Source: a virus. Taken from it: a stretch of DNA of 49,654 nt. Position numbers and translations under genes: made by a program. Location: the IMG/VR virus record IMGVR_UViG_3300045988_105566; one strand, written 5' to 3'. Position 1 is the first letter of the stretch. The number at the start of each line of letters is the position of its first letter. This document shows positions 31,073 to 44,003 of the stretch, in pieces. The notes beneath the pieces are model-generated. The model searched no databases, had not been told where the DNA came from, and worked only from the letters and a program-made list of their open reading frames with translations.

Positions 31073-31134
31073 GGGCGCAAAGGCGAACAATACAGCCGAT
31101 TATAATAATAGCTCCAAATTTCAGAAACTTTTTG

Positions 31135-31142
31135 TACCTTTG
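31135..31142 (+). promoter_or_regulatory. TAccTTTG -7 box upstream of the moron genes
   Basis: Exact TAnnTTTG in AT-rich intergenic DNA. Confidence 0.35.
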
Positions 31143-31191
31143 AAAAAGTTTTGATATTATAGCGTTTGCTATTGTTTTTAAGGTTTAGGAA

Positions 31192-31282
31192 ATCGCCAAT
31201 TTCACAACGGACTTAAAAAACAATGGTAAATGCCTGCGTTATGCGTGGGCATTTCCTTGTTAGTCCGTAGGTGTTTGGCGAT
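31192..31282 (+). ncRNA. Candidate structured leader/ncRNA: three stacked helices (8+7+7 bp)
   Basis: ATCGCCAA/TTGGCGAT (31192-99/31275-82), ACGGACT/AGTCCGT (31207-13/31262-68), AAATGCC/GGCATTT (31228-34/31248-54), all perfectly complementary and nested. Confidence 0.3.
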
Positions 31283-31362
31283 ACCTCTAAACCGACAGGA
31301 ACGCCCACGCTTTTCTGTGTGCATATCCGGAAACAGCAGCGAATGTTTGATTTACGGATAGC

Positions 31363-32220
31363 ATGAGCGAAAAGAAACCAACAAGGCAGGCGGAGATCGT
31401 ATTTGCCGCCATGAAAGCAATCGAGGCCAACGGCGGCGAAATGAGGATTTCGGATATATACGAAACCCTCGCATCATCGTTCCCGCTGACCGATTATGAG
31501 AAAGAGGAAACCAAGAGCGGTGTCATCCGCTGGAAAGCGTATCTCAACTTCTATTCGATAGAGGTAGGCAAGGTCGGGTATCTCGTCAAAAAGAGCGGGA
31601 TTTGGCATCTGACGGAAGAGGGTGCGAAAGCTCTTGCCGCCGGAGCCGGAGAGTTCTTCGCCGATTTTCACGGCAAGTTTTCCAAGATACAGAAAGAGCA
31701 CGCGGTATCGGTCATCGAGGAGAATGCGGATCAGCCCGATGATTTGGATATGTTGCAAGGTCAGGCATCGAAAGGCATTCGGGAGTATATCATCAAAAAG
31801 AACCCCTACGAGTTTCAGGATTTGGTCGCCGCCCTGTTGCGGGCAATGGGTTACTACACGCCGTTCATCGCCCCGAAAGGCAAGGATGGCGGCGTCGATA
31901 TTATCGCCTACCGAGACCCGCTCGGCACGACCGCCCCGCAGTTGAAAGTACAGGTCAAGCATTATCCGACCTCTGCAATCTCCATCGATGTCGTCCGTAG
32001 TCTGCTGGGGGTTCTCGTCAAGGAGGGCGAAGTCGGCCTGCTGGTTACATCGGGGACATTCACCAGCGAATCCAAGAAAGAGGCCCGCAACGGGCATCGC
32101 TGCCTACGCCTGATCGACATCGACGAGTTCATCGACCTATGGATTCGCTACTACGACCGCATGAGCGAGGAGGACAAAGCACTGCTCCCGATTATTCCTG
32201 TCTATTTCCTGAAAGCATAA
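31363..32220 (+). CDS. Mrr-like (type IV, modification-dependent) restriction endonuclease
   Basis: N-terminal Mrr_N-like winged helix. C-terminal DGGVDIIAY...LKVQVKHY...LLVTSGTFT matches the Mrr catalytic domain pattern. Confidence 0.75.
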   Translation: MSEKKPTRQAEIVFAAMKAIEANGGEMRISDIYETLASSFPLTDYEKEETKSGVIRWKAYLNFYSIEVGKVGYLVKKSGIWHLTEEGAKALAAGAGEFFADFHGKFSKIQKEHAVSVIEENADQPDDLDMLQGQASKGIREYIIKKNPYEFQDLVAALLRAMGYYTPFIAPKGKDGGVDIIAYRDPLGTTAPQLKVQVKHYPTSAISIDVVRSLLGVLVKEGEVGLLVTSGTFTSESKKEARNGHRCLRLIDIDEFIDLWIRYYDRMSEEDKALLPIIPVYFLKA

Positions 32221-32232
32221 AACCATCATATT

Positions 32233-32730
32233 ATGAGAAAACTCTTATCTATCCTATTCCTATCCCTTTGCGTCGCAACTTGCTCCAAAGACGACGCCCC
32301 ACAGCCGGAGATGAACGAAACAGTCAAACAGATTTGGCAGACCCTCAATGGAACCTATATCGGATTCCACGAGGATAAATTATCCTCTGCCGCCTCCTAC
32401 ACGGAAACCATCGCCTTTCAGCCCTATTCCGAGCCGAAAGAGATCAAGCCGACGGTAATCCTTTTCCCTGATTTCACGGCATACGGAACCGCCGTAATAA
32501 CCGACACCCGATTTGAAGCGATCAGCGGCTCATCGACCTGCTATTACTCAATAGACGTAAAATATGAGGGGGCAACCCCGACGATCTCATTCTTTGAATA
32601 CGGAACGGATGGCGAAGTAGTGAACCGCGAAGATAAGCGCAATATCAAGGTCATCGACGCCTCCTCTTTCAAAATGTGGGATTATGGCTTGACCGAGGCA
32701 GAGAATGCGATAATCTACGCCAAGCAATAG
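32233..32730 (+). CDS. Lipoprotein, unknown function (moron)
   Basis: Signal plus lipobox (LSLCVATCS). 165 aa. Confidence 0.65.
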   Translation: MRKLLSILFLSLCVATCSKDDAPQPEMNETVKQIWQTLNGTYIGFHEDKLSSAASYTETIAFQPYSEPKEIKPTVILFPDFTAYGTAVITDTRFEAISGSSTCYYSIDVKYEGATPTISFFEYGTDGEVVNREDKRNIKVIDASSFKMWDYGLTEAENAIIYAKQ

Positions 32731-32791
32731 AAATCCAAATAAATCACTATCTTTGCGGTACTGATAACCCCGTATCAGTTGCGTTGAATAC

Positions 32792-32833
32792 CCCTCTCGA
32801 CAGACCGATAGATCGGGCGTTGAGAGGGTTTTT
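32792..32833 (+). terminator. Intrinsic terminator-like hairpin plus T5
   Basis: CCCTCTC...GAGAGGG with an inner CCGA/TCGG stem, followed by TTTTT. Confidence 0.5.
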
Positions 32834-32840
32834 CATTCAA

Positions 32841-32864
32841 TTCTGTTACCCGTCTGTTACTCGG
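32841..32864 (+). repeat. Tandem direct repeats TTCTGTTACCC / GTCTGTTACTCGG (candidate integrase arm sites)
   Basis: The same TCTGTTACTCGG word recurs at 33122..33133, and inverted at 33141..33151. Confidence 0.45.
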
Positions 32865-33099
32865 ACGTCGAAGTGTCGTTCATTGGTTGCGAATAAGCCA
32901 ATATGTAATAGTGAGTTACAACCTATTTTAGAAAGAAGCCATAGATTTTGCATCGGAAAATAGGTCGTCATTTTTCCAATTAACCAAAACGCCATTTCGC
33001 CAGCACATCATCGGCATATAAACAGCAATAACAAAGCTATTTACAGTTTTATCTGCCAAACAAAATTTTCTCATCTCTTTGCTGTACGGATGCAAATAA

Positions 33100-33159
33100 T
33101 TTGTTACTTTTGTGTTGCTATTCTGTTACTCGGCCAAAATGAGTAACAGAAGTAACAAA
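33100..33159 (+). promoter_or_regulatory. int promoter box (TActTTTG 33105..33112) plus a nested palindrome
   Basis: TTCTGTTACTC-N9-GAGTAACAGAA (33121..33151) is flanked by TTTGTTAC (33100..33107) / GTAACAAA (33152..33159). Confidence 0.5.
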
Positions 33160-33180
33160 AATCATTCAACGCAAAAGGAT

Positions 33181-34320
33181 ATGGCGGAGATCAAAGAACC
33201 GATCCGGATCAGGCGCAAGAAGCTGACGAACGGGAACGTCAGCCTCTACCTCGACATCTACCTGAACGGAAAGCGGGAATACGAATTTCTGAAACTGTAC
33301 CTCATTCCCGAAAAGACAAAAGCCGACAGGGAGGCGAACCGGCAAACCCTCCAACTCGCCAACTCGATCAAGGCACGGCGCATCGTCGAGGTGCAGAACG
33401 GCGAGCATGGCTTCAAGTCGGCATACGCCTCCGACACCCTCTTCTTCGACTACTACCGTGCGATGTGCGCCCGGCGGCTCGGAGCGGAGAGTACCGGAAA
33501 TTGGGGGAATTGGAAATCATGCCTGAAACACCTCCAAAAATACGAGCCGAACGAGCGGATCAGGTTCTCGCAGATCACGCAGGAATGGGTGCAGGGATTT
33601 CGGGACTATTTAGAGAAAGATGCGTGCGCGTGGAGCTGCGACGAGCGGGATCGCATCAAGGATCATCCGCTGTCTCGCAATTCACGGGTCAGCTACTTCA
33701 ATAAACTGCGGGCCTGCCTGAATCAAGCATACGAGGATCGCATCATACCTATCAACCCCATGAGGGGCGTCGAGGGTTTCAAGGCCGAAGAGGGAACACG
33801 CATGTACCTGACCATCGAAGAGGTGCAGCGGCTCGCTCAAACAGAATGCGAATATCCGGCCATCAAGCGGGCGTTCCTGTTCTCCTGCCTGACGGGACTG
33901 CGCCGCTCCGACGTGATCCGTCTGACATGGGGCGATGTGCATCAGCAGGGAGAGTTCACTCGGATTATCTTCAAACAGAAGAAGACCAGCGGACAGGAAT
34001 ATCTCGACATCCCGCCGCAGGCCGCCGAACTCATGGGCGAGCGCGGCAAGGACGCCGAGCATATCTTCCCCAACATCCACTCTCCGAGTTGCACCAACGA
34101 AACGATCAAAAGGTGGGTATTGCGGGCCGGAATCCATAAGGATATAACCTTCCATTGCGGCCGCCACACGTTCGCGGTGATGATGCTCGACCTCGGAACC
34201 GATATTTATACGGTCAGCAAGCTACTCGGACATCGGGAGCTATCGACCACGCAGATTTACGCAAAGGTGCTCGACAAGAACAAGCAGGCAGCGGTCGCCA
34301 AGATACCCGACATATTCTAA
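33181..34320 (+). CDS. int: Tyrosine recombinase / phage integrase (Bacteroidota type)
   Basis: N-terminal IRIRRKKLTNGNVSLYLDIYLNGKREYEFLKLYL arm-binding-like domain. Catalytic LRRSD, HCGRHTF, LLGHRELSTTQIY. The ATG at 33181 is preceded by TTCAACGCA. The track ORF starts at 33112 and an alternative ATG lies at 33139. Confidence 0.9.
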   Translation: MAEIKEPIRIRRKKLTNGNVSLYLDIYLNGKREYEFLKLYLIPEKTKADREANRQTLQLANSIKARRIVEVQNGEHGFKSAYASDTLFFDYYRAMCARRLGAESTGNWGNWKSCLKHLQKYEPNERIRFSQITQEWVQGFRDYLEKDACAWSCDERDRIKDHPLSRNSRVSYFNKLRACLNQAYEDRIIPINPMRGVEGFKAEEGTRMYLTIEEVQRLAQTECEYPAIKRAFLFSCLTGLRRSDVIRLTWGDVHQQGEFTRIIFKQKKTSGQEYLDIPPQAAELMGERGKDAEHIFPNIHSPSCTNETIKRWVLRAGIHKDITFHCGRHTFAVMMLDLGTDIYTVSKLLGHRELSTTQIYAKVLDKNKQAAVAKIPDIF

Positions 34321-34325
34321 CGAAG

Positions 34326-34353
34326 AAAGGCATCGGTTTCGATGCCTTTTTCT
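34326..34353. terminator. Bidirectional terminator hairpin between convergent genes
   Basis: AAAGGCATCG-gttt-CGATGCCTTT, a 10-bp perfect stem with a T-run on the 3' side. Confidence 0.6.
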
Positions 34354-34621
34354 ATTGCTGGAACATCATGCCCCGTCCGGTCAGGAGCCATGTCGCGGAT
34401 ATGCCGCAATCCCGAACCAGCGGAACGAGCCATCCGACCTCGAAATAGCCACGATTGCGGTCTTTACGCTGCGTATAGAAATGAGGCGGAGCTATCGAAT
34501 TATCCCGGCAATATTCGGCGATACTCTTTATCAGCCGATTCTGTACGGCAATGTCGAACGCCGTGAAAAACCGCTCCATAATAGCCAACGTATTGTCGCT
34601 GTAAACCCGTCTGCGGCTCAT
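34352..34621 (-). CDS. CI-repressor-type HTH protein
   Basis: C-terminal ISATWLLTGRGMM is typical of phage CI HTH domains. Confidence 0.55.
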   Translation of the reverse strand: MSRRRVYSDNTLAIMERFFTAFDIAVQNRLIKSIAEYCRDNSIAPPHFYTQRKDRNRGYFEVGWLVPLVRDCGISATWLLTGRGMMFQQ

Positions 34622-35448
34622 TTCTTCTTCCCCTTGATTAGCGTCTTTTCCTCCGATTTAAGCCGTCGTTCGACTTTCTTCACATCTTCGCCCGCAGGGA
34701 GCTGTTCGGGGACGATACCCCGGCTCAAAAGCATATTGCGGACGGCGACGTTGTTATCGACATGCTCCTTTTCTATCGCCATCTGTCCGTGCAAATTCTT
34801 CTGCTCGGCATTTACAGAGGTCATTTCGGCGGCAAAATCTTTCGCTTTGATACCGATCGTCGGCAGAAAGTCGGCCAGCGGACGGGAATCGGGTGCACCG
34901 AGTTTGCGCTTTACCAATGCTGTATCAAGATGGAACAAAGCCCTATCCCCTTTCGACCGGATAATCGCAAAACCCCGGCTATCGACGCCGCGCTCATACA
35001 GGACGCCTGACAGTCGTTTTTCGGTTTCTGCCAGCTTCGCGCGAGCCTGCACCCGTTCGTAATCGAGGATTCTCTGCTGCACCAACTCCGCTCTACGGGT
35101 CTGCACAGCGAAATAGTTTTGTGCAAATGCGATCTGCGGCTTGCGGGGATCGCCGTTCTGCGCAATCAGGTAGCAGGCATAGCGGGTCAGCATATAATCA
35201 TCAATCTCGCGCTGCGCACCTTTGGCAAGTTCGATCATTTTCCCGACGCGGGGAAAATGATCCTCGACATGCTCTCCTGCGTTTACACACGCATCCCGCG
35301 CCTTTTCGATTACATTGTAGAATTTTTCCCACTTCGAATAGCCGAGAAGCCCGCAAAGTTCTCGCGCACTCCAACATTCGATCCCCTCATACTCATTGGC
35401 GATAGATTCGAACTGCTCGAACAACTCCTTTATCTCTTCTGTTTTCAT
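34618..35448 (-). CDS. dinD: DNA-damage-inducible protein D homologue
   Basis: WSARELCGLLGYSKW..., LTRYACYLIAQNGDPRKP and YFAVQTRRAEL align with the recalled E. coli DinD sequence. Confidence 0.75.
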   Translation of the reverse strand: MKTEEIKELFEQFESIANEYEGIECWSARELCGLLGYSKWEKFYNVIEKARDACVNAGEHVEDHFPRVGKMIELAKGAQREIDDYMLTRYACYLIAQNGDPRKPQIAFAQNYFAVQTRRAELVQQRILDYERVQARAKLAETEKRLSGVLYERGVDSRGFAIIRSKGDRALFHLDTALVKRKLGAPDSRPLADFLPTIGIKAKDFAAEMTSVNAEQKNLHGQMAIEKEHVDNNVAVRNMLLSRGIVPEQLPAGEDVKKVERRLKSEEKTLIKGKKK

Positions 35449-35459
35449 ATATCCGACCT

Positions 35460-35801
35460 CTATTTATTATTCTTTTCTATAATCCCGATGAGCCGATCCA
35501 TCTGCTCGTCCTTTTTTTCGAGCAGGGCGATGAATTTCTCCGACAGCGCATTGATCTGATTCGAATCACCCGATACCGCGATACCGTGATCCGTCGCTAC
35601 CGTATTCCCGCTACCCTCATAGAAATAACAAACACTTTTGTTGGTAACACGGGCAATATCCTCGATCAACCCACTTTTGACATCCTCGGATTTCAGGGCA
35701 CTATGCAGACGTTGATCCCCATTATGTCCGAGCATCCGCGCAACATCCGCAATTGTGATGCCCTCCGAGCGAAGTATGTCCTTTATCTTCTGTCCTGTCA
35801 T
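35460..35801 (-). CDS. HTH transcriptional repressor (CI-like lysogeny regulator candidate)
   Basis: N-terminal HTH (ITIADVARMLG). Divergent from the cro-like gene. Confidence 0.6.
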   Translation of the reverse strand: MTGQKIKDILRSEGITIADVARMLGHNGDQRLHSALKSEDVKSGLIEDIARVTNKSVCYFYEGSGNTVATDHGIAVSGDSNQINALSEKFIALLEKKDEQMDRLIGIIEKNNK

Positions 35802-35904
35802 ATATGTTTGTATATCACAATGTTATTCTTATTTAAACGCAAATCCCAATCTATGCCAAATATTTTTCTTTGCAGAAAACAAAGAAATATGTTGGTTATC
35901 CAAA

Positions 35905-35912
35905 CAAAAGTA
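35905..35912 (-). promoter_or_regulatory. Leftward -7 box (TActTTTG on the minus strand)
   Basis: The plus strand reads CAAAAGTA. Lies back-to-back with the rightward box. Confidence 0.4.
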
Positions 35913-35914
35913 TT

Positions 35915-35922
35915 TATCTTTG
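35915..35922 (+). promoter_or_regulatory. Rightward early -7 box (TAtcTTTG)
   Basis: Exact TAnnTTTG, about 100 nt upstream of the cro-like ATG. Confidence 0.4.
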
Positions 35923-36019
35923 CCCTTGCAATACGGGAAGATATTGACGCATCAATAAAATCCGTCGGGTGCAAATATATAAAAATAGTACCTAACAAGT
36001 GAATAATTATCGACGAAAT

Positions 36020-36265
36020 ATGAGCAGAACAGAGAAAAAATCATTTTTCGACCTCTATGCGGAGCAGAAAAAGAAGCCGACGCCCGCGCAGAATTTCATC
36101 GCCGAGATCGCTGCGCTCACGCATCGTTCCGAGAATACGGTCAAGATGTGGCTCTGCGGTCGGCAAGTCCCCGACGAGCTGACGCAGAGTATCATAGCCC
36201 GTCGCTACAACCTGAATATAAACGGCCTCTTCCCAAAATCGGAGGTGCAATCCAATGAAATATGA
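36020..36265 (+). CDS. Cro-like small HTH protein
   Basis: First rightward gene. FIAEIAALTHRSENTVKMWLCG is HTH-like. The track ORF begins at GTG 35999. Confidence 0.55.
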   Translation: MSRTEKKSFFDLYAEQKKKPTPAQNFIAEIAALTHRSENTVKMWLCGRQVPDELTQSIIARRYNLNINGLFPKSEVQSNEI

Positions 36266-36510
36266 AAGCTCTGCTGAATTGGCGATACTACGTTCTGATG
36301 GTCGTCGGTATGATCGCCGTTATCGGGACATTCTCCGTCCCCATAGACGACCAACCGCTCGGAGCATGGCTGCTCGCCCTGATAATCCCGAAGATCATCG
36401 GATTCGGGGCTTGGTATCTCATCTTTCGGATGTGCGACTATTGGGACGCTCGCGGGCTGATTCCCGAAATGTCGAAAACGATGCAGGAGGAGGACGACAC
36501 ATGGGAGTAG
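36262..36510 (+). CDS. Small two-TM membrane protein
   Basis: Two hydrophobic segments. 82 aa. Confidence 0.55.
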   Translation: MKALLNWRYYVLMVVGMIAVIGTFSVPIDDQPLGAWLLALIIPKIIGFGAWYLIFRMCDYWDARGLIPEMSKTMQEEDDTWE

Positions 36511-36773
36511 AGGAAAGATTGGAACGTATCGAGCGGCTTCTACTTCTCGGTTCGAAAGAGGTGCTCAATACCTCGGAGATCGCCCTGTTGCTCGGCATAT
36601 CCGAAAGCCGCGTGCGGCATTTGACGAGTGCAAAGAAGATTCCGCACTACAAGCAGGGCAACAAAATCTATTTCAGGAAAAAGGAGATCGAAGCATGGCA
36701 GCTTCAATCCCGCGTCCCGACCGACGATGAAATCCGCAGCAGGGGCACGACCTACGCCGTAACGCATAAATAG
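36501..36773 (+). CDS. Excisionase-family (MerR-like HTH_17) DNA-binding protein
   Basis: LNTSEIALLLGISESRVRHLTSAKKIPHYKQGNKIYFRKKEIEAW. The internal ATG at 36501 overlaps the previous stop. Confidence 0.6.
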   Translation: MGVEERLERIERLLLLGSKEVLNTSEIALLLGISESRVRHLTSAKKIPHYKQGNKIYFRKKEIEAWQLQSRVPTDDEIRSRGTTYAVTHK

Positions 36774-36780
36774 CAGAGAT

Positions 36781-37020
36781 ATGAACGACAACCCTAATAT
36801 TCAGGAATCCGAAAGCCAATGCAAGCGCATACTCGCCTACTTGCTGAACGGAAGCCGGATCACGAGCCTCGAAGCATTGCGGCTCTTCGGGTGCATGAGG
36901 CTCGCATCACGCATCAGCGACCTGCGGAAAAGCCATCCCGAAATCAAGTTCAAAGCAACGAGGGTTGAGACGACGACGGGGAAAAGGGTCGCTCAATATT
37001 ACATCGAGAGTATTCAGTAA
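36781..37020 (+). CDS. Small winged-helix-like protein
   Basis: ILAYLLNGSRITSLEALRLFGCMRLASRISDLRK resembles the recalled HTH_39-type domain. Confidence 0.4.
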   Translation: MNDNPNIQESESQCKRILAYLLNGSRITSLEALRLFGCMRLASRISDLRKSHPEIKFKATRVETTTGKRVAQYYIESIQ

Positions 37021-37038
37021 ACATTCAATTCAACGCAA

Positions 37039-39024
37039 ATGAAAACGGTAATTATCAAAGAAATCCGGCTCCTCAATTTCAAGGGGCTGCGCGATCTGAC
37101 GGTCGAGTTCGACCCTGCGCTCACGGAGATTTACGGGCGCAACGGCATCGGCAAAACTTCGATCTTCGACGGGTTCACATGGCTCCTGTTCGGCAAGAAC
37201 AGCGAGGACAGAAAACAGTTCGGCATCAAGACCTACGACGAGGCCGGAAACATCATCCCGAAACTCCCGCACGAGGTATCGGCCGTCCTGCTGGTCGATG
37301 GCGAGGTCGTAACCCTCTGCCGTCGGTTCAATGAAAAATGGACGAAGAAACGCGGCTCGGCGGTCGAGGAGTTCGTCGGACATGAAGAGGAACGCCTCTA
37401 CAACAACGTACCCTGCTCGGTCAAGGAGTGGAACGAGAAGATCGCCGCCATCTGTCCCGAACAGGTATTCAAGTTCATCACCCATCCCCTCTACTTCACA
37501 TCGCAGTCGGTAGATACGCAGCGGTCGATGCTCTTCCGTATGGCCGGAGGTATCACCGACGAGGAGATAGCCGCCGGAAATGCCGATTTTGCGGCCCTCC
37601 TTGCCTCGCTCACGGGTAAGACGATGGAGGAATACAAGAAAGAGATCGCCGCGAAAAAACGCCGTCTGAAAACCGAAATCGAGGCCATTCCCGAACGTAT
37701 CGACGAACGCCGCCGCGATGTGCCGGAGGCGGAGGATTGGGCGGCCCTCGAAGAAGAACTCCGCCAAAAACAAGAGGCACTCGCAAAGGTCGAGGAACAG
37801 ATTAACGACGCATCGAAAGCCTATGCCGCCGCGAATGAGGAACGGCTTGCAACGGTGCGCAAAATCAGCGACCTGAAAAACGAACGGCTGGCCCTCGAAC
37901 TCAAAATCAAGGACGAAGTACAGGCCCTCTACCGTTCCGACAAGGCCAAGCAGCGGGCCGCTGCCGAGGATTTGGAGCGGGCGAAGCGCGACAAAGCCGC
38001 CGCCGAGCGCGACCTCGCCAATGCCCGCCGAGAGGTAGAGGTATGCACCGATCGCCGCGCCGAGCTTATCAAGCAATGGCAATCAATCAATGCCCGCAAG
38101 CTCGTATTCGATGAGAACGAGTTTATTTGCCCGACCTGCAAGCGCCGTTTCGAGATCGAGGAGATCGAGAGCCGCCAGCAGGAGATTACCGAGAACTTCA
38201 ATCGCCGGAATGCCGCCGACCTCGAAGAGAACAATCGTCGCGGCAAGGAGAACAAACTCCGCATGGAGGAGGTGAATCAATATATCAGCGAAATCGAGGA
38301 AAAGATCGCCGAGCAGGTATCTATCATCTCCGAAATCGAAATGAGCGGCATCCTCACGGCAAAACTCATCGAACCCGACGCCACCCCGACCATCGCGGCC
38401 AACACCGAGTATATAGCACTCGGAGAACAGATCGCAGAACTCGAAAAGGAAGTTTCGCAGCCCATAGCCGCCACAGAGGATGATTTTTTACGCGAGGGAC
38501 GCGATTCTCTTACCGTCGGAATCGACGCGCTCAAATCGCGGCTGATGAAGCGCGAACAGATCGAGAAGAATAACCAGCGCATCGCCGAACTCGAAAAGTC
38601 TCTCCGGATGCAGTCGGAAGAACTCGCGCAGTTGGAGGGTATCGAGTTCACGATGGCAGCTTTCTCGAAAGCCCGCACGGAGGCCATCGAAAGCAAGATC
38701 AACGGGCTGTTCGACTTCGTGAAGTTCCGCCTCTTCGAGACACAGATCAACGGAGGTGAAGTGGAAACGTGCGAAGCAATGGTGAACGGCGTGCCGTTCT
38801 CCGATGCCAATACCGCAGGGCAATTCAACGCGGGTATCGACATCATCAACGCGATATGCCGTTTCGAGGGCATTTCCGCCCCGATTTTCGCCGATGGTTC
38901 GGAAAGCGTCAATACCCTGCATCCGACACAATCGCAGGTTATCCGCCTGTTCGTATCGCTCGACGACAAGCTCGTCATCAAGCACAACGGAAATCCGGCT
39001 CAACCGAAGAGCCTTTTCGACTAA
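37039..39024 (+). CDS. Rad50/SbcC-like ATPase with CxxC hook
   Basis: Walker A GRNGIGKTS at the N-terminus, a long central coiled coil containing CPTC, and a C-terminal Walker B-like region. Confidence 0.7.
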   Translation: MKTVIIKEIRLLNFKGLRDLTVEFDPALTEIYGRNGIGKTSIFDGFTWLLFGKNSEDRKQFGIKTYDEAGNIIPKLPHEVSAVLLVDGEVVTLCRRFNEKWTKKRGSAVEEFVGHEEERLYNNVPCSVKEWNEKIAAICPEQVFKFITHPLYFTSQSVDTQRSMLFRMAGGITDEEIAAGNADFAALLASLTGKTMEEYKKEIAAKKRRLKTEIEAIPERIDERRRDVPEAEDWAALEEELRQKQEALAKVEEQINDASKAYAAANEERLATVRKISDLKNERLALELKIKDEVQALYRSDKAKQRAAAEDLERAKRDKAAAERDLANARREVEVCTDRRAELIKQWQSINARKLVFDENEFICPTCKRRFEIEEIESRQQEITENFNRRNAADLEENNRRGKENKLRMEEVNQYISEIEEKIAEQVSIISEIEMSGILTAKLIEPDATPTIAANTEYIALGEQIAELEKEVSQPIAATEDDFLREGRDSLTVGIDALKSRLMKREQIEKNNQRIAELEKSLRMQSEELAQLEGIEFTMAAFSKARTEAIESKINGLFDFVKFRLFETQINGGEVETCEAMVNGVPFSDANTAGQFNAGIDIINAICRFEGISAPIFADGSESVNTLHPTQSQVIRLFVSLDDKLVIKHNGNPAQPKSLFD

Positions 39025-39053
39025 TAATCATTCACTTAAAATTCAACGCAATT

Positions 39054-39338
39054 ATGAAAACCGAAGAACAGAAAAGCGCATTTATCCTCCGCGTGGAGGA
39101 GATGGTAAAAGAGATCGAAACGCTGATGCAGGAGGGGGGGGGCAATGAGAGGTCTTGCATCCTCCTCGTAAACGAGAAGCCGCAAGACAGCGACATGACT
39201 ACCCAATGTATAGCGATCATGGGAAGCGGCAAAAGGCTGATCGAAAGCATGTCCGTATTCATCGAACGGCCCAACATGGCAGAAGTCGTGTCTCTCGGTG
39301 CAAAACTCGCCGCTCTTAAAAAACTCGCAGAAAATTAA
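39054..39338 (+). CDS. Hypothetical 94-aa protein containing a G9 tract
   Basis: The ATG is preceded by TTCAACGCA (39042..39050). Confidence 0.55.
   Translation: MKTEEQKSAFILRVEEMVKEIETLMQEGGGNERSCILLVNEKPQDSDMTTQCIAIMGSGKRLIESMSVFIERPNMAEVVSLGAKLAALKKLAEN
39134..39142 (+). repeat. G9 homopolymer inside a CDS
   Basis: Counted: gag ggg ggg ggc (E-G-G-G). Confidence 0.9.
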
Positions 39339-39358
39339 CATTCAAAATCAACTTTACA

Positions 39359-40273
39359 ATGAATCAAGCAATAGCAAAGCAGGATCGCCCCGTCGATCTG
39401 CTCAAAGCAACAATCAATGCTCCGTCGGTACAGGAGCAGTTCAAGAACGCCCTCGGCGAACACAAGGATACGTTCGTCGCATCGCTCATCGACCTCTATA
39501 CGGGCGACCGGTCGTTGCAGACCTGTAAGCCCTCGGTAGTCATCGCCGAAGCACTCCGCGCGGCGACCCTCCGCCTGCCTCTGAACAAGGCCCTCGGTTT
39601 CGCCTACATCGTGGTTTACAACAACTCGGTAAAACAGGCTGACGGCTCATGGGTCAAAGTCCCTACACCGACGTTCATCCCCGGCTACAAGGGCTATATC
39701 CAGCTCGCCATGCGAACGGGGCAGTACCGGACGATCAATGCCGATGTAGTCTATGAGGGCGAAGTCCGCAAGGTGAACAAGCTCACGGGAGAGATCGCTT
39801 TCGACGGCGAAAAGACCTCCGACAAGATCATCGGCTACTTCTGCTATTTCGAGCTGCTCAACGGCTTTTCCAAGACGCTCTATGTAACCGTCGAGGATAT
39901 GGCCGCCTACGCCAAGCGGTATTCTCCCTCCGTGAAGAAAGAAACGACCGTCGCGCAGCTCATCGCCAAAGCCAACGACGGCATCATCGGCAAGAAAGTC
40001 GGATGGGAGGGCAACTTCAACGACATGGCTCTGAAAACGGTGATTCGCCGCCTGCTGTCGAAATACGGCTATCTCTCCGTCGAGATGCAGAACGCGATGG
40101 CTCACGATGTCGAGGATGAGGCCATGTCGAACCGCAACGACACGCTCGATAATGCCGCAGCGCAGACGGTCGATCTCTCGGCAACGGAATACGAGGAGGT
40201 CGATACGGAAACGGGGGAAGTCAAGGAAACCGGATCGGAGCAGGCCGCACCCGCTCCTGCACCTGAATACTGA
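39359..40273 (+). CDS. recT: RecT-family single-strand annealing protein
   Basis: GYKGYIQLAMRTGQYRTINADVVYEGE core. Acidic C-terminal tail. Confidence 0.8.
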   Translation: MNQAIAKQDRPVDLLKATINAPSVQEQFKNALGEHKDTFVASLIDLYTGDRSLQTCKPSVVIAEALRAATLRLPLNKALGFAYIVVYNNSVKQADGSWVKVPTPTFIPGYKGYIQLAMRTGQYRTINADVVYEGEVRKVNKLTGEIAFDGEKTSDKIIGYFCYFELLNGFSKTLYVTVEDMAAYAKRYSPSVKKETTVAQLIAKANDGIIGKKVGWEGNFNDMALKTVIRRLLSKYGYLSVEMQNAMAHDVEDEAMSNRNDTLDNAAAQTVDLSATEYEEVDTETGEVKETGSEQAAPAPAPEY

Positions 40274-40290
40274 TCTGACGGCACGAGAGT

Positions 40291-41028
40291 ATGATCTTGA
40301 AATGTTTGGGGAGTTCATCACGGGGCAACTGCTACATCCTCGAAGCGGCCGATGAAACTTTGATCGTCGAGGCGGGAATACCGATGCGCGACATCAAAAA
40401 GGGTCTCGGCTGGCAGCTCGGCAAGGTGGTAGGATGCCTCGTATCTCACCGACACGAAGATCATGCAAGGTCGTTGAACGACTTTCTCACCTGCGGCATC
40501 CGCGTACTGGCTCTCGCCGATGTATTCGACGCCGCCAATCCGAGAAATCGCGTATTCTGCAAGATAATCGAACCGATGCACGGCTACAAAGTGGGAGGCT
40601 TCAAGGTCTTCGTACTGCCGGTCGTCCACGATGTGCCGTGCGTCGGGTTCGTCATCGAGCATCAGGAGATGGGACGCCTGCTTTTCATCACCGATACGAT
40701 GATGCTGGAATACCGGCTGCCGAACCTGAATCACATCATGATCGAGGCGAACTACTCCGATGCAATCTTGCAGCGCAATATCGACAGTGGGCGGATGCCT
40801 CCCGCCATGCGGGGACGGCTGCTGGGTTCGCACATGGAATTGCAGACGACGAAAGAGATTTTGCGGACGACCGACCTATCGGCGGCAAATGAGGTGATTT
40901 TACTGCATCTCTCCGACGGCAACAGCAATGCCAAAGGATTCGCCGAAGAAGTTCGGCAAATCGCCGGAAAACCGGCATATATCGCCCGTGCAGGATTGGA
41001 GGTCAATCTCGATAAAATGCCCTACTGA
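40291..41028 (+). CDS. Metallo-beta-lactamase-fold hydrolase (candidate nuclease)
   Basis: HxHxDH motif (SHRHEDHARS). 245 aa. Confidence 0.75.
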   Translation: MILKCLGSSSRGNCYILEAADETLIVEAGIPMRDIKKGLGWQLGKVVGCLVSHRHEDHARSLNDFLTCGIRVLALADVFDAANPRNRVFCKIIEPMHGYKVGGFKVFVLPVVHDVPCVGFVIEHQEMGRLLFITDTMMLEYRLPNLNHIMIEANYSDAILQRNIDSGRMPPAMRGRLLGSHMELQTTKEILRTTDLSAANEVILLHLSDGNSNAKGFAEEVRQIAGKPAYIARAGLEVNLDKMPY

Positions 41029-41029
41029 T

Positions 41030-41203
41030 ATGCGACCCGTGCCGAACGATATAGTTTCAACGCTGATCCGCTACCTGCCGCAGATACTCGAAAACGTGCA
41101 GATAGACAGCGGAAATACGCGGCTCATCAATGCCGTAAGACTGACAAAAAGGATTATTCCACGATTAAAGAAAATTGAGAATGAAAAAAATACCAAACCC
41201 TAA
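41030..41203 (+). CDS. Possible 57-aa ORF
   Basis: The ATG lies 2 nt after the MBL stop. Fills a gap. No motif. Confidence 0.3.
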   Translation: MRPVPNDIVSTLIRYLPQILENVQIDSGNTRLINAVRLTKRIIPRLKKIENEKNTKP

Positions 41204-41405
41204 CGGAAACAAATTCGTCTTGCCAAAGGGATATACTGACCTCGGATGGCAACTCGATTTTAATGCTTCCGAACTAAAAAAATGCAGGGAAGCCGGGCAT
41301 ATCCGGCGGAAGTTCGATAATTCCAAATACCTGTATCGGTGTAACGATGTGGTATATATCTGCGATCAATGCAAGAATGTACACCATGTCGATATGAGTG
41401 ATTAA
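41181..41405 (+). CDS. Small Cys-containing protein
   Basis: MKKIPNPNG...CDQCKNVHH. Confidence 0.45.
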   Translation: MKKIPNPNGNKFVLPKGYTDLGWQLDFNASELKKCREAGHIRRKFDNSKYLYRCNDVVYICDQCKNVHHVDMSD

Positions 41406-41418
41406 AAAATCGAATGCA

Positions 41419-42207
41419 ATGCTGATAGTAAAGCAGGACAAGACCCGCAAGGAGGAAGAGGGACAGATATTCGTCGAACTCACGATTTACCGTGATGTCA
41501 GGAATATCGCAGACTGCAACCGCCTCGGATATTGGTGCGACAAAGCGCATCTGTCGCACTTCATCATGGAATGCGCGAAATGTTTTACGCAAGACGAATT
41601 AAAAAACATACTGAAAATGAACGGAAACAATATTTACATCGAGAAAAACAACCTGCTCGATGCCTACAAGAAAGGCAATGCCGATAACAAGAAGATGCTC
41701 GAAAATCTCTTCGGCAAGGAGATGTTCCGCCCGAAAAACATCATGGAGCGCATCAAGACCTTTGATGACGCATTCAAGGAACTCGGCGAGCACCATCCGC
41801 TCGTAAAAGAATACCACAAACGGCATCTGTTCCTCGAAGACGATTCGGATATTAGCTCCGATCTCGTAGCCTACCTCAAACTCCGCATCATTACCGCCGC
41901 TCTCAACGAGGGTTGGACACCGCAGTTCACCGAGGACGAATACCGCTACTTCCCGTGGTTTTGGCTCTACACCAAGGAGGAGATCGCCAAGATGGACAAG
42001 GAGGAGCGCAAGAAAGTTGTCCTGTTCGGCGGTCCTGCGTATGACTGCGCGGATGCCGGTTTTGCGTCTGCGGATTCGTCTAACACGCGCCCTCGAGTAC
42101 GTATGCGACTGTCGGGTCTCGCCTTTGCTTCAAATCGTCCGCGCTGGCGAAATACGCAGGTGAACAATTCGCTGAAATCTACTTTGCTTTCGTGGGGAAA
42201 TAGATGA
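41419..42207 (+). CDS. DGR target protein 2 (remote); VR2 carries a 2-nt indel, so possibly a pseudogene
   Basis: The C-terminal VVLFGGPAYDCADAGFASADSSNT is collinear with TR/VR1. After the 2-nt insertion the listed frame diverges, while the other frame restores APSSTYATVGSRLCF. Confidence 0.7.
   Translation: MLIVKQDKTRKEEEGQIFVELTIYRDVRNIADCNRLGYWCDKAHLSHFIMECAKCFTQDELKNILKMNGNNIYIEKNNLLDAYKKGNADNKKMLENLFGKEMFRPKNIMERIKTFDDAFKELGEHHPLVKEYHKRHLFLEDDSDISSDLVAYLKLRIITAALNEGWTPQFTEDEYRYFPWFWLYTKEEIAKMDKEERKKVVLFGGPAYDCADAGFASADSSNTRPRVRMRLSGLAFASNRPRWRNTQVNNSLKSTLLSWGNR
42016..42128 (+). repeat. VR2 (second variable repeat)
   Basis: Aligns to TR 24458..24568. By hand count 18 of 29 TR adenines are substituted, with no non-A substitutions. 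There is one CG insertion around 42084..42087. Confidence 0.88.
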
Positions 42208-42959
42208 TGGGAGGATGGATAAAAATATATCAAACCATTCGGGAGCATTGGATATGGAATGATCCGCGAAAATTGAAGTGGTGGATCGACCTGCTGATGC
42301 TCGCCGAATGGAGAGATAGCAAACGCCTTGTTGGATCAGACCTCGTAACCATCAAACGGGGGCAATTGATCGCATCCGTCCACTATCTCCGCGAGCGGTG
42401 GGCATACAAAGATGACAACGGGGTGCAGCGCAAGCCGTCCGAGCATACCATCCTCAAATTTCTATCTCTCCTCGAAGCAGATCAGATGATAAGCCGCGCG
42501 AAACACCCTGCCACCCGTGCAACGATGATTACGATAGTTAATTACGATGATTACCAGCAGAATAGCGCAGCAGGATGCAACGAGGGCAGCAACGACCCCT
42601 GCAACGACGGGTGCAACGATCCCTGCACAGAAGATAAGAATAATAAGAATATAAAAGACAATAGAGAGGGGAAAAGTGGAAAAAGCGAAAAACGCTTTTC
42701 CCCGCCCTCTATCGAGGAGGTTGATTCTTATATCAGGGAAAAGGGGTACACGGTGGATGCCGAGCGATTCGTGAACTTTTACGAGAGCAAGGGATGGTAT
42801 GTCGGCAAGAACAAGATGAAAAACTGGCGTGCGGCGGTGGCAACATGGCAAAAAGAAGACAACAAACGAAATGGGATCAATCAACAAAGATCATGTGATA
42901 AACGTCGAGGGACTGAGGCGACAGCTACTCGCCCGGAAGACTACGAGGGGAAATTTTAA
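42204..42959 (+). CDS. Replication organiser/initiator-like protein (intact copy)
   Basis: N-terminal winged-helix-like region, a CN(D/E)x repeat linker and a C-terminal FSPPSIEEVDSYIREKGYTVDAERFVNFYESKGW motif recalled from phage replication proteins. Lies upstream of the DnaC-like loader and spans the IR boundary. Confidence 0.55.
   Translation: MMGGWIKIYQTIREHWIWNDPRKLKWWIDLLMLAEWRDSKRLVGSDLVTIKRGQLIASVHYLRERWAYKDDNGVQRKPSEHTILKFLSLLEADQMISRAKHPATRATMITIVNYDDYQQNSAAGCNEGSNDPCNDGCNDPCTEDKNNKNIKDNREGKSGKSEKRFSPPSIEEVDSYIREKGYTVDAERFVNFYESKGWYVGKNKMKNWRAAVATWQKEDNKRNGINQQRSCDKRRGTEATATRPEDYEGKF
42576..42623 (+). repeat. Four tandem degenerate 12-mers (TGCAACGAgggc-type)
   Basis: tgcaacgagggc agcaacgacccc tgcaacgacggg tgcaacgatccc. 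The IR boundary (42587) lies at the unit 1/2 border. The mirror at 7032..7067 is followed by a different unit-like 12-mer at 7068..7079. Confidence 0.85.
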
Positions 42960-43542
42960 GTGGTCGGTGAGCTTGAAGCAGGCAGCGGACATTCTGCTGG
43001 CAGCATATCAGGCGGAAGTCGAATACCGCCACCGCAGGTTCATCGAGGACAAGGCGACCAAAACCAACATCGAACGGCTGGCCGCATTCCTGATCCGCGA
43101 CGATGCCAAGTTCGGGGTAATGCTCTGCGGCGTACCCGGCAATGGTAAAACAACTCTCCTGTATGCCTTTCAGTCGGCGGTGAATTGGCTCAACGACATA
43201 GGGCATTTCGAGGGCAAACGGGCCGGTATTCGGATCGTCGATGCAAAGGAGGTAGTTATGCTCGCAAAGGATTTCGAGGCATTCCGTAACCTACGCAATA
43301 TGCCGATGATCGCCATTGAGGACATGGGGCGCGAACCGATAGAGGTTCTCGACTATGGGAACATCCTCAATCCGGTTGTCGATATGCTCGAATATCGCTA
43401 CAACATGCAGCTCTTCACGTTCATCACGACCAATCTCACGAAATCGCAAATCCGCGAGAAGTACGGCAACCGCATCGCAGACCGATTCAACGAGATGCTC
43501 GAAGTCATCATTTTCAAGAATGAGACCTATCGGGACAAATGA
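42829..43542 (+). CDS. DnaC/IstB-like AAA+ helicase loader
   Basis: Mirror of 6113..6826(-). Identical translation. Confidence 0.75.
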   Translation: MRRWQHGKKKTTNEMGSINKDHVINVEGLRRQLLARKTTRGNFKWSVSLKQAADILLAAYQAEVEYRHRRFIEDKATKTNIERLAAFLIRDDAKFGVMLCGVPGNGKTTLLYAFQSAVNWLNDIGHFEGKRAGIRIVDAKEVVMLAKDFEAFRNLRNMPMIAIEDMGREPIEVLDYGNILNPVVDMLEYRYNMQLFTFITTNLTKSQIREKYGNRIADRFNEMLEVIIFKNETYRDK

Positions 43543-43652
43543 AATTAAGGCGATTTGCCGCGAGTTTCAGGTAACGGCGATAAGATGGTCGGATAATCCG
43601 AAATAATGCGGCATATCGCAGAAAACAGAGCAAAGACACAAAATTCAACGCA

Positions 43653-44003
43653 ATGGGGACAGAAGTAAAATTAAAACGGGAGGCAATCGAGCGACGCATC
43701 GCCGAATTGGAGGGCAAGATGCCCGACATCCAAGCCTCCAAAGAGGGAGCCGAAGCGCGGGCAACGATCCGCAGGCTGAAAGCGCGGCTCAAAACCTATC
43801 CGCAAGAGCCGAAAAAGCGGATTTACAAAGTCAAGGCCCGATTCATTTTCGACGGCGTTTTCGAGATTCGCGCCCACACTCGCAAAGAGGCCGTGCAGAT
43901 GGCAAAAATCGGATGCGGGATGAACATCGGAGAAATCCACACCTGCTACGGGACTGACGTAGATTGGGAATTTGATTGCAAACCGGATAAAATCGTGAAA
44001 TAA
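43653..44003 (+). CDS. Hypothetical 116-aa protein
   Basis: Mirror of 5652..6002(-). Confidence 0.55.
   Translation: MGTEVKLKREAIERRIAELEGKMPDIQASKEGAEARATIRRLKARLKTYPQEPKKRIYKVKARFIFDGVFEIRAHTRKEAVQMAKIGCGMNIGEIHTCYGTDVDWEFDCKPDKIVK

What the first reader, a model, noticed from the sequence alone, without database searches (positions are those of the whole stretch)
41419..42207. Second, remote DGR target in the early/replication region, with a frame-breaking 2-nt insertion inside VR2
Seen: 42016..42128 aligns to TR 24458..24568. About 18 of 29 TR adenines are substituted with a different pattern from VR1, and there are no non-A substitutions. There is an extra CG at about 42084..42087 relative to both TR and VR1. 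The listed frame then reads ...SSNTRPRVRMRLSGLAFASNRPR. The shifted frame restores the VR1-like APSSTYATVGSRLCF and also terminates near 42204. The gene is on the same strand as TR/RT, about 17.5 kb from the TR. It is the last gene of the early recombination operon, lies immediately upstream of the replication organiser, and has no visible signal peptide or TM. Established: DGRs can serve several targets, and phage targets are almost always tail or receptor-binding proteins. Inference: three options. (i) A decaying ex-target. (ii) A consensus or assembly error caused by population hypervariability in the VR. (iii) A functional non-structural, early-expressed diversified protein, which would be an unusual use of a phage DGR.
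Basis: partly seen in the sequence, partly recalled or inferred. Interest (0 to 1): 0.8.

Follow-up and report, generated by a model that had tools for sequence, protein, structure and literature searches.

The report
Frameshifted second target of phage DGR
A gut prophage's mutation-generating retroelement rewrites a tail protein and also a small cytoplasmic early-gene protein of unknown function, a kind of target already reported in Bacteroides phages; this copy carries a real 2-base frameshift, probably made by the retroelement itself and apparently reversible.

Summary
Window 42018..42130 is a second variable region (VR2) of the DGR at 24080..25746. Eighteen of 29 template (TR) adenines are changed, no other base differs, and there are 2 extra bases at 42084..42089.

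The insertion is real, not an assembly error. The exact frameshifted 262-aa protein is on at least 11 contigs from several projects and assemblers, with identical VR2 DNA.

VR2 is a live target in the population. Of 96 contigs, 92 carry unique VR2 sequences; adenine sites differ from the TR at 66% and other sites at 2.3%. Most relatives are about 260 aa with a conserved C-terminus that the frameshift destroys, so this copy is probably a null allele.

The same +2 insertion recurs in three unrelated alleles at the TR's ACAC repeat, which suggests reverse-transcriptase slippage. One contig (L114) is identical to the window except for a re-diversified 3' third of VR2 and a compensating 2-base deletion that restores the frame.

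The protein family (phrog_11581) is a remote DGR target in early or counter-defence modules of at least four Bacteroidales phage lineages. Benler 2021 and a 2025 Nature paper already described this, so it is a new member of a known kind. Its molecular function remains unknown.

The parts
41419..42207 (+). The VR2-bearing gene as it stands: 262 aa, frameshifted, TGA stop overlapping the ATG of the next gene. The ancestral form is 260 aa, family phrog_11581.
   Evidence: (phrog_11581, E 7.9e-62, for the frame-corrected protein)
42018..42130 (+). VR2, the second variable region of the DGR (113 nt; 111 nt without the insertion).
   Evidence: population variability
42084..42089 (+). Site of the 2-nt insertion. 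It reads CACGCG where the TR has CACG, and is best read as (AC)2 expanded to (AC)3 with the last A changed to G.
   Evidence: (same site in L203 and L204/L205)
42112..42130 (+). 3' end of VR2, TCGGGTCTCGCCTTTGCTT. It is identical to the 3' end of VR1 and differs from the TR at four fixed adenine positions, so it is the likely IMH-type homing end.
   Evidence: 24552, 24562 and 24563 fixed in 88 of 88 alleles
42201..42203 (+). TAG stop of the ancestral (frame-corrected) reading frame.
24458..24568 (+). Template region (TR) with 29 adenines, mostly in AAT/AAC codons.
24709..25746 (+). DGR reverse transcriptase (345 aa; YADD at 213 and IGNYLSQ at 181).
24080..24427 (+). 115-aa ORF between VR1 and the TR, in the position of the Avd accessory protein (phrog_19665; no Pfam or NCBIfam hit).
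22602..24029 (+). Primary target, a tail protein (phrog_5302), with VR1 at 23906..24016.
40291..41028 (+). MBL-fold hydrolase upstream of the VR2 gene; conserved neighbour.
42204..42959 (+). DnaD-like helicase loader or replisome organiser immediately downstream.

Best explanation
VR2 is a genuine remote target of the prophage's single DGR.

**Mechanism (established for DGRs; inferred here).** TR RNA (24458..24568) is copied by the RT, with Avd, into adenine-mutagenised cDNA. That cDNA replaces any VR ending in the homing sequence TCGGGTCTCGCCTTTGCTT. Two genes carry that end: the tail protein (VR1) and, 17.5 kb away, a 260-aa cytoplasmic protein of family phrog_11581 in the recombination/replication (early) operon.

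**The family.** It is diversified at about 15 codons near its C-terminus. It sits in early, replication or counter-defence modules of several Bacteroidales phage lineages. It is most likely a variable intracellular binding protein used in phage-host or phage-phage conflict. That function is an inference; no partner is known.

**This allele.** The window's allele carries a real +2 insertion, most likely made by RT slippage on the ACAC dinucleotide repeat of the TR during a homing event. The insertion replaces the conserved C-terminal segment with out-of-frame sequence, so this copy is probably a null allele that the prophage tolerates. The homing end is intact, so a later homing event can overwrite or compensate the lesion. 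One natural sister allele appears to have done so.
For: **Target status**
- Mismatches to the TR are at adenines only.
- The 3' end is shared with VR1 and is distinct from the TR.
- The RT has the DGR motifs YADD and IGNYLSQ.

**Live diversification in the population**
- 92 of 96 VR2 sequences are unique. Adenine sites differ from the TR at 66% and non-adenine sites at 2.3%.
- VR1 gives almost the same figures, 65% and 2.5%.
- One 90%-identity protein cluster holds 16,516 distinct sequences.

**The ancestral frame is the corrected one**
- phrog_11581 matches residues 71-258 of the corrected protein.
- Homologues of 257-263 aa share GSRLCFKSSALAKYAGEQFAEIYFAFVGK.
- L235, L242, A243, Y245, Q249 and F250 are invariant or nearly so in 136 sequences.
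- The model gives confident helices at 240-258.

**The insertion is real**
- The exact 262-aa protein is on at least 11 contigs (ENA, Logan, JGI; MEGAHIT- and SPAdes-style names) with 0 mismatches in VR2, while some of those contigs differ elsewhere.

**Origin by the DGR**
- The same NNC-AC-GCG-CCC insertion occurs in L203 and in L204/L205 with unrelated adenine patterns on both sides.
- A TR carrying the extra AC has 0 hits in IMG/VR; the normal TR has 18.
- Other frameshifts and in-frame length variants are scattered through the VR.
- Slippage by a DGR RT is discussed in PMC12875486.

**Reversibility**
- L114 equals the window over 40546..42641, except for a 2-nt deletion at 42095-96 and four adenine-site changes at 42099..42109. 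Its protein is in frame and 260 aa long.

**Non-structural role**
- The family member is a second, adenine-specific VR in BT-TP2, BI-TP1/LoVEphage and Versailles, each time in an early, replication or DNA-modification module.
- In 80 GTDB loci the RT lies within 6 kb only once, whereas integrase, DnaD, DnaC, SbcC, MBL, RecT and C5-methylase genes are common neighbours.
- There is no signal peptide or transmembrane segment.
- Similarity to the tail protein is confined to the 48-aa VR cassette.
Against: - No read-level data were available, so ongoing diversification of this specific allele in its own sample is untested. The allele is identical in all contigs that carry it.
- The slippage origin is inferred from three alleles and depends on how the insertion is aligned. 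An ordinary replication error at the same short repeat is not excluded.
- L114 is a single 2-kb metagenomic contig. Recombination between two co-resident VR2 alleles could give the same pattern.
- The protein's function is unknown. Pfam, NCBIfam, PADLOC, PDB sequence search and Foldseek against the PDB all gave nothing. The C-type lectin fold expected of DGR targets was not detected.
- Expression timing is inferred from gene order only.
Confidence: 0.72

Rival explanations
1. The 2-nt insertion is a consensus or assembly artefact caused by hypervariable reads over the VR.
For: - Hypervariable VRs are known to break assemblies (PMC8008677).
- The window itself is misassembled elsewhere, with a fold-back at 7082|7083.
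- About 3% of assembled VR2 alleles carry indels.
Against: - The exact 262-aa product and identical VR2 DNA appear on at least 11 contigs from several projects and assemblers, including 72-kb and 275-kb scaffolds.
- Invariant stretches inside the VR are at most 13 nt, too short for k-mer chimeras at k of 119-141.
Confidence: 0.03
2. VR2 in this lineage is a dead relic: the gene has been inactivated for good and is no longer a substrate for homing.
For: - VR2 is identical in all contigs with this allele, although some carry mosaic patches and small indels elsewhere.
- The conserved C-terminus is lost.
Against: - VR1 is just as static in the same lineage. The exact VR1 protein occurs in samples from different accession series, and L020 has 11 mismatches, all outside VR1. 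Stasis therefore reflects a quiet DGR, not decay specific to VR2.
- The 3' homing end is intact and identical to that of VR1.
- L114 shows a re-diversified 3' tract with the frame restored on an otherwise identical background.
- There are no further disabling mutations in the 5' 600 nt of the gene.
Confidence: 0.15
3. The protein is a virion or host-recognition component (a second receptor-binding protein) that merely happens to be encoded outside the late operon.
For: - Phage DGR targets are usually tail proteins.
- The VR cassette matches the tail-protein family phrog_5302.
- The Versailles homologue is annotated 'tail protein'.
Against: - Similarity to the tail protein is limited to the 48-aa TR-derived cassette.
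- In four phage lineages and 80 GTDB loci the gene lies among recombination, replication, lysogeny and methylase genes.
- A frameshifted allele persists in a phage for which an excised attP junction was assembled.
Confidence: 0.1
4. The out-of-frame product is itself used: DGR-made frameshifts act as an ON/OFF or two-form switch for the protein.
For: - Frameshifted alleles are recurrent: the P0014 cluster has 365 members and most of those inspected are frameshifted.
- The shifted frame stays open for 55 codons and ends in an ATGA overlap with the next gene.
- The lesion is reversible by homing.
Against: - Frameshifted alleles are a small minority, about 3% of contigs.
- The shifted tail is arginine-rich and low in complexity, as expected from reading GC-rich codons out of frame.
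- The open shifted frame is not evidence of selection for it, and the third frame also occurs (P0136).
Confidence: 0.05

Closest known systems
The second, non-structural DGR target of Quimbyvirus / LoVEphage (Benler et al. 2021, Microbiome, PMC8008677). BI-TP1 gp84 is the homologue checked here.
   Same: - Same protein family: tblastn gives 44% identity over residues 93-260 to BI-TP1, PV4-TP1 and LoVEphage records.
- The homologue is a remote second VR with adenine-only changes.
- It lies outside the structural module, among methyltransferases and a tRNA ligase.
- The authors likewise infer a role in phage-host conflict.
   Different: - The phage lineage differs: this prophage is about 57 kb by scaffold coordinates and is integrated next to mnmE, against 71-75 kb for Quimbyvirus/LoVEphage.
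- Here the gene lies between an MBL hydrolase and a DnaD-like loader, on the same strand as the RT.
- It has an extra 70-aa N-terminal Cys/His-containing extension.
- This copy is frameshifted.
[quoted passage not shown]
   Same: [quoted passage not shown]
   Different: That paper gives only genome maps and one sentence. It makes no analysis of the target protein, of indels or of allele dynamics. I could not check whether those phages are the window's lineage.
Bordetella phage BPP-1 DGR (Mtd/VR, TR, Avd, bRT).
   Same: - TR to VR adenine mutagenesis.
- The order VR, accessory ORF, TR, RT at the primary locus.
- An IMH-like 3' end that distinguishes the VR from the TR.
- Partial conversion tracts anchored at the 3' end, expected from my own knowledge of the marker co-conversion work by Guo et al. 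2008, which I did not re-read.
   Different: - BPP-1 has one adjacent target, a tail-fibre tip with a solved C-type lectin fold.
- Here there are two targets, one of them 17.5 kb away and non-structural.
- No stable hairpin was predicted downstream of either VR.
Tentaclins (PMC10743442).
   Same: They are a second DGR target in gut phages that have two target genes.
   Different: Tentaclins have an N-terminal C-type lectin domain followed by Ig domains and are proposed adhesins. This family is largely helical, has the VR near its C-terminus and has no Ig domains.

Membership tests
DGR variable region (target of mutagenic retrohoming) | VR/TR pair whose differences fall at TR adenines | tested here: met
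   18 of 29 adenines changed and 0 non-adenine changes within 24458..24568. In the population, 66% against 2.3%.
DGR variable region (target of mutagenic retrohoming) | A DGR-type reverse transcriptase in the same genome | tested here: met
   RVT_1 E 1.7e-19 and phrog_1423 E 9e-131. YADD and IGNYLSQ motifs present. Up to about 60% identity to RTs of crAss-like phage records; whether those are DGR RTs was not checked here.
DGR variable region (target of mutagenic retrohoming) | Accessory protein (Avd-like) next to the TR | tested here: inconclusive
   A 115-aa ORF at 24080..24427 is in the right position and belongs to phrog_19665, but has no Pfam or NCBIfam match.
DGR variable region (target of mutagenic retrohoming) | A 3' homing end (IMH) shared by the VRs and distinct from the TR (IMH*) | tested here: met
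   VR1 and VR2 share TCGGGTCTCGCCTTTGCTT where the TR has TCAGGTCTCGCCAATGATT. The differences are fixed in 88 of 88 alleles.
DGR variable region (target of mutagenic retrohoming) | Hairpin or cruciform just downstream of the VR (BPP-1 type) | tested here: not met
   DNA folds of the 86-89 nt stretches starting at the 3' end of VR1 or VR2 are no more stable than shuffled sequence (z +1.3 each). This feature is not universal among DGRs.
DGR variable region (target of mutagenic retrohoming) | VR displayed on a C-type lectin (or Ig) fold | tested here: inconclusive
   The AF2 model has pLDDT 74.6, but the VR (residues 201-230) is below 50. Foldseek against the PDB gives no hit with E below 1. The PDB profile search gives nothing relevant. 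The VR sequence pattern (G-G...GSRLCF) resembles lectin-type VRs only from my memory.
phrog_11581 / Quimbyvirus-type non-structural DGR target | Sequence homology over the scaffold as well as the VR | tested here: met
   phrog_11581 E 7.9e-62 over residues 71-258. 7,359 homologues. 2,800 clusters at 50% identity.
phrog_11581 / Quimbyvirus-type non-structural DGR target | Encoded away from the RT cassette, in early, replication or counter-defence modules | tested here: met
   (RT within 6 kb in 1 of 80 loci).
phrog_11581 / Quimbyvirus-type non-structural DGR target | Intact reading frame through the conserved C-terminal helices | tested here: not met
   The window's copy is shifted after residue 223. 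It is a member by descent, but this copy is probably non-functional.
Mtd-like tail or receptor-binding protein | Homology to tail proteins beyond the VR, or location in the tail module | tested here: not met
   hhalign aligns only 48 residues around the VR. The gene lies 17 kb from the tail genes in the early operon.
Tentaclin | N-terminal C-type lectin domain followed by Ig-like domains | tested here: not met
   The VR is C-terminal, there are no Ig domains and no Pfam hits. Definition taken from PMC10743442.

The most novel reading that the evidence does not exclude
The phrog_11581 proteins are a phage-encoded, DGR-diversified intracellular 'antibody': a small cytoplasmic binder expressed with early genes whose hypervariable loop is retargeted against variable host defence proteins or rival-phage proteins. 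DGR-made frameshifts at a slippage-prone ACAC site, and their repair by later homing, would give it a built-in reversible OFF/ON switch.
Probability: 0.12. Interest if true: 0.8.

Novelty: new member of a known kind. Interest (0 to 1): 0.45.

Why it matters
Nearly all that is known about phage DGRs concerns receptor-binding tail proteins. A cytoplasmic, early-region protein that is rewritten just as intensely points to a second arena of accelerated evolution inside the cell, probably defence or counter-defence. Here the adenine-site divergence is the same for VR2 and the tail VR.

Published work has noted such targets only briefly. This analysis adds the following:
- One protein family (phrog_11581, at least 2,800 clusters at 50% identity) fills this role in at least four Bacteroidales phage lineages.
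- The family member is almost never next to the RT.
- It has no detectable known fold.
- Natural alleles record DGR by-products: a recurrent +2 at an ACAC repeat, other indels, and a frame-restoring partial conversion.

That gives concrete handles for experiments on what the protein binds and on DGR fidelity in vivo. For this specific window the practical message is modest. The gene should be annotated as a frameshifted allele of a known DGR target family, neither corrected as a sequencing error nor called a tail protein.

Tried and rejected
**Searches for close relatives**
- Megablast of 41300..42572 and of 20000..44000 against 50,697 GenBank phage records found no match. The lineage is not among deposited phages, and my initial guess of Hankyphage was dropped.
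- An exact-pattern scan of GTDB species genomes found 0 hits.

**Searches for function or fold (none gave a lead)**
- Pfam on the protein and on 136 family members.
- NCBIfam.
- PADLOC.
- PDB sequence profile search; the TIM44 and PNRC2 hits at E 0.02-0.2 were judged chance.
- Foldseek against the PDB, all hits E above 1.
- Foldseek against BFVD, only uncharacterised phage proteins.
- Longer family members were scanned for informative domain fusions. The only hit was an M20 peptidase, probably a chimeric contig. One isolated Tad2-like hit (1 of 136 members, E 0.001) was not pursued.

**Other dead ends**
- The first structure model from 37 sequences was too poor to use (pLDDT 60).
- A BPP-1-like hairpin downstream of the VRs was not found.
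- Tentaclins were considered and rejected on architecture.
- I considered that a TR variant might carry the extra AC. That was rejected for IMG/VR: 0 hits against 18 for the normal TR.
- I considered alternative alignments of the insertion (+CG after ACG, or +NN before CAC). I preferred the (AC)2 to (AC)3 reading because it needs the fewest coincident substitutions across the three alleles.
Full report
**1.

A repeat search finds three copies of one element: VR1 at 23906..24016, the TR at 24458..24568 and a third copy at 42018..42130. The 13-mer GCCGGTTTTGCGT occurs three times against 0.15 expected by chance.

Base by base, the third copy differs from the TR at 18 of its 29 adenines and at no other base. 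VR1 differs at 23 adenines with another pattern. The third copy is 2 nt longer: TR AACACGCCC against AACACGCGCCC at 42082..42092.

The ORF as it stands (ATG 41419 to TGA 42207, 262 aa) changes frame after ...SSNT. Removing 2 nt gives a 260-aa protein ending GSRLCFKSSALAKYAGEQFAEIYFAFVGK, with its stop at 42201..42203.

The DGR itself looks complete:
- a tail-protein target (phrog_5302);
- a 115-aa ORF in the Avd position;
- the TR;
- a 345-aa RT with YADD and IGNYLSQ.

The neighbours of the VR2 gene are an SbcC-like protein, RecT and an MBL hydrolase upstream, and DnaD-like and DnaC-like loaders downstream. The protein has no hydrophobic segment or signal-like N-terminus.

**2. Which frame is the real one**

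The corrected protein matches PHROG family 11581 (function unknown) over residues 71-258 with E 8e-62. It has 7,359 homologues in the 5.8-billion-protein collection. The close ones are 257-263 aa long with the corrected C-terminus.

A profile search of 1.84 billion cluster representatives finds 2,800 clusters. Most are proteins of about 190-200 aa that correspond to residues 70-260.

In an alignment of 136 members, L235, L242, A243, Y245, Q249 and F250 are invariant or nearly so. All of these lie beyond the frameshift. The structure model gives confident helices at 240-258. The window's allele has therefore lost a conserved part of the protein and is probably non-functional.

**3. Is the insertion an artefact? 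No**

The exact 262-aa frameshifted protein is in the collection on at least 11 contigs from ENA, Logan and JGI sources. These include scaffolds of 72 kb and 275 kb in which the element is a prophage next to mnmE.

All ten fetched contigs are identical to the window across VR2. Some differ elsewhere, with clustered mosaic patches at 39255-39290, 40347-40425 and 40812-40869, and small indels at 39134, 41340 and 42522. Independent assemblies of slightly different genomes thus agree on the allele.

**4. Is VR2 a live target? Yes, in the population**

I scanned for the two invariant anchors of VR2 with a variable gap between them. This returned 14 IMG/VR contigs and 82 metagenome stretches, of which 96 loci were analysed.
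- 92 of the 96 VR2 sequences are unique.
- Among 88 unique alleles of normal length, TR-adenine positions differ from the TR at 66% on average. Other positions differ at 2.3%. The only two strongly polymorphic non-adenine positions are probably TR differences between lineages.
- Three adenine positions at the 3' end (24552, 24562, 24563) are fixed differences in all alleles, as expected for a homing end that distinguishes the VR from the TR.
- VR1 gives almost the same figures: 12 unique of 13, 65% against 2.5%.

The 90%-identity protein cluster around the intact form holds 16,516 distinct sequences.

**5. The stasis of the window's allele is not specific to VR2**

The exact VR1 protein of the window also recurs in samples of different accession series. 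One of these contigs carries 11 mismatches, all outside VR1. Both VRs are therefore frozen in this prophage clade. That fits a DGR that is rarely active in lysogens better than decay of VR2 alone.

**6. Where the insertion came from**

The 90% cluster represented by the frameshifted P0014 has 365 members. Eleven of the 15 members inspected are frameshifted, with the shift at many different points of the VR. The cluster also holds in-frame length variants of -4, -1 and +2 codons.

In the contig sample, besides the window's own allele, one allele has +2 at another site (L108) and one has -2 with a premature stop (L095).

At the DNA level, two further alleles carry a +2 at exactly the window's site, with unrelated adenine patterns on both sides: L203 from SRR31097848, and L204/L205 from ERZ28577643 and ERR8667408. 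All three alleles read NNC-AC-GCG-CCC. This is the TR's AAC-ACG with its (AC)2 repeat expanded to (AC)3 and the last adenine changed to G, the commonest state at that site.

A TR with the extra AC is absent from IMG/VR, whereas the normal TR occurs 18 times. Homing tracts are anchored at the 3' end, so adenines on both sides of an inherited insertion could not be rewritten without erasing it. The three alleles are therefore best explained as independent events.

The simplest cause is slippage of the RT on the dinucleotide repeat during cDNA synthesis. Slippage has been invoked for the Bordetella enzyme and for indels in AAC repeats (PMC12875486). This step is inference.

**7. Evidence that the lesion is reversible**

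Contig L114 (OHYR01007746.1, 2,094 bp) is identical to the window from 40546 to 42641, including the first two-thirds of VR2 and the insertion. It differs only by a 2-nt deletion at 42095-96 and four changes at 42099, 42103, 42108 and 42109, all at TR-adenine positions. Its product is in frame (260 aa...SSNTRPRSSAYVGSRLCFKSS...).

That is the footprint expected of a partial, 3'-anchored homing event whose 5' junction fell in the invariant CCCTCG. It could run in either direction: it either repaired the window's allele or produced it. Recombination between two alleles is an alternative. A k-mer chimera is unlikely, because the shared invariant stretch is only about 9 nt.

**8. What the protein is**

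No known domain or fold was found:
- Pfam, NCBIfam and PADLOC gave nothing.
- The PDB profile search gave only chance-level hits.
- Foldseek against the PDB gave nothing below E = 1, and against BFVD only uncharacterised phage proteins.

The better model (136 sequences, mean pLDDT 74.6) shows a mostly helical core with small strands and a low-confidence VR loop at 201-230. Similarity to the tail-protein target is confined to 48 residues around the VR. Published work calls the Quimbyvirus homologue a C-type lectin protein (PMC8008677). I could neither confirm nor refute that fold.

**9. Context across phages**

All eight deposited phage records that encode a family member also encode a DGR RT. 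I checked three lineages by hand. In each, the family member carries a VR matching that phage's TR with changes at adenines only.
- **BT-TP2.** The gene is split across the ends of the GenBank record and is not annotated.
- **BI-TP1/LoVEphage, gp84.** It lies among methyltransferases, an ASCH protein and a tRNA ligase, on the strand opposite to the RT.
- **Versailles.** It lies between MBL/NinB and the replisome organiser, and is labelled 'tail protein'.

In 80 loci from GTDB species genomes (Alistipes, Prevotella, Phocaeicola, Muribaculaceae, Bacteroides, Barnesiella and some Firmicutes MAGs) the RT lies within 6 kb only once. Other genes found within 6 kb:

| Neighbour | Loci (of 80) |
|---|---|
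| integrase | 23 |
| DnaD-like | 17 |
| DnaC-like | 16 |
| SbcC-like | 14 |
| MBL hydrolase | 14 |
| C5-methylase | 13 |
| RecT | 11 |

The family is thus typically a remote, non-structural target.

**10. What is already known**

Benler et al. [quoted passage not shown] They proposed a role in phage-host conflict. A 2025 Nature paper reports four induced Bacteroidota prophage species with a second VR distal to the RT cassette, near counter-defence genes.

The window's gene belongs to the same protein family as the LoVEphage/Quimbyvirus-type target. The finding is therefore a new member of a known kind. Tentaclins, another second-target family, have a different architecture.

**11. Verdict**

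| Claim | Confidence |
|---|---|
| Real second DGR target | very high |
| Real frameshift allele | high |
| Probable null allele made by the DGR's own imprecision at an ACAC repeat | moderate |
| Still repairable by homing | moderate (one contig) |
| Function: a diversified cytoplasmic binder in conflict systems | inference only |

Interest is moderate. The phenomenon is published. The family-wide picture, the indel hot spot and the frame-restoring allele are new details.

Noticed in passing
window 1-7082 and 42573-49654; junction 7082|7083; shared repeat 6982-7082 / 42573-42673: The first 7,082 bases are the perfect reverse complement of the last 7,082. Genuine related prophages match the window from 6982 rightwards, so a real inverted repeat of about 100 bp (GCAACGA-rich) links the DnaD-like gene and a minus-strand accessory-gene block. 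The contig folds back there. The window lacks terminase and portal genes, which relatives carry to the left of that block. This is probably a misassembly, though real inversion across the repeat is not excluded.
   Followed up: partly
window ~32945-32957 (attP core); 33112-34320 integrase: The window crosses an attP-type junction. In metagenomic scaffolds the same element is a prophage flanked by mnmE on the integrase side and by DUF5131 and acetyltransferase genes on the other side. The sequence shared at both ends is about 13 bp.
   Followed up: partly
window 40291-41028 (+): The MBL-fold hydrolase just upstream of the VR2 gene carries 'faint' Anti-Pycsar Apyc1 marks in the precomputed Pfam tables of its identical copies. 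It might be a cyclic-nucleotide-degrading counter-defence enzyme. My own Pfam scan showed only Lactamase_B and Lactamase_B_2.
   Followed up: no
window 31363-32220 (+): A 285-aa Mrr-like restriction endonuclease (Mrr_N, Mrr_cat in precomputed tables) sits near the right end of the prophage, next to the last gene (32233-32730). It is a likely defence gene carried as cargo.
   Followed up: no
window 7139-10025 (-): A compact block of minus-strand genes lies between the packaging and head genes. Relatives add an ADP-ribosylglycohydrolase, DUF7659 and DUF3873 genes here. This looks like a variable accessory-gene island.
   Followed up: no
L006 (Bacteroides phage BT-TP2, PQ571279.1) positions 1-324 and ~44838-45224: The GenBank record of this cultured phage splits its second DGR target across the record ends, with a duplicated stretch, and leaves it unannotated. 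The paper describing the phage reports only the large gp44-type target.
   Followed up: yes
L024 4944-5525 (Bacteroides phage Versailles, ON453897.1 10181-10762): The family member is annotated 'tail protein' although it lies between MBL/NinB and the replisome organiser. The label probably comes from the TR-derived VR cassette shared with the true tail target.
   Followed up: yes
LoVEphage, BI-TP1 and PV4-TP1 records (hits H38-H43): The DGR reverse transcriptase of these phages aligns in three pieces. This agrees with the published claim that the Quimbyvirus RT is read through two frameshifts.
   Followed up: no
window 41515-41583 (protein residues 33-55): The 260-aa subfamily has an N-terminal extension with conserved C33, C40, H44, H47 and C52 (CNRLGYWCDKAHLSHFIMEC). 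This is possibly a small metal-binding module. It is absent from the commoner ~195-aa members.
   Followed up: no
window 39134 and 41340-41347, as seen in L009-L011 and L015: Otherwise identical contigs carry a 1-nt insertion that splits the 94-aa ORF between SbcC and RecT into 31-aa and 47-aa ORFs. One contig has an 8-nt deletion upstream of the VR2 gene. Small indels are accumulating in this prophage clade.
   Followed up: no
protein P0026: One homologue is out of frame from about residue 165, some 100 nt upstream of the VR, and returns to frame inside the VR. This indel pair extends beyond the TR-homologous region and is unexplained.
   Followed up: no
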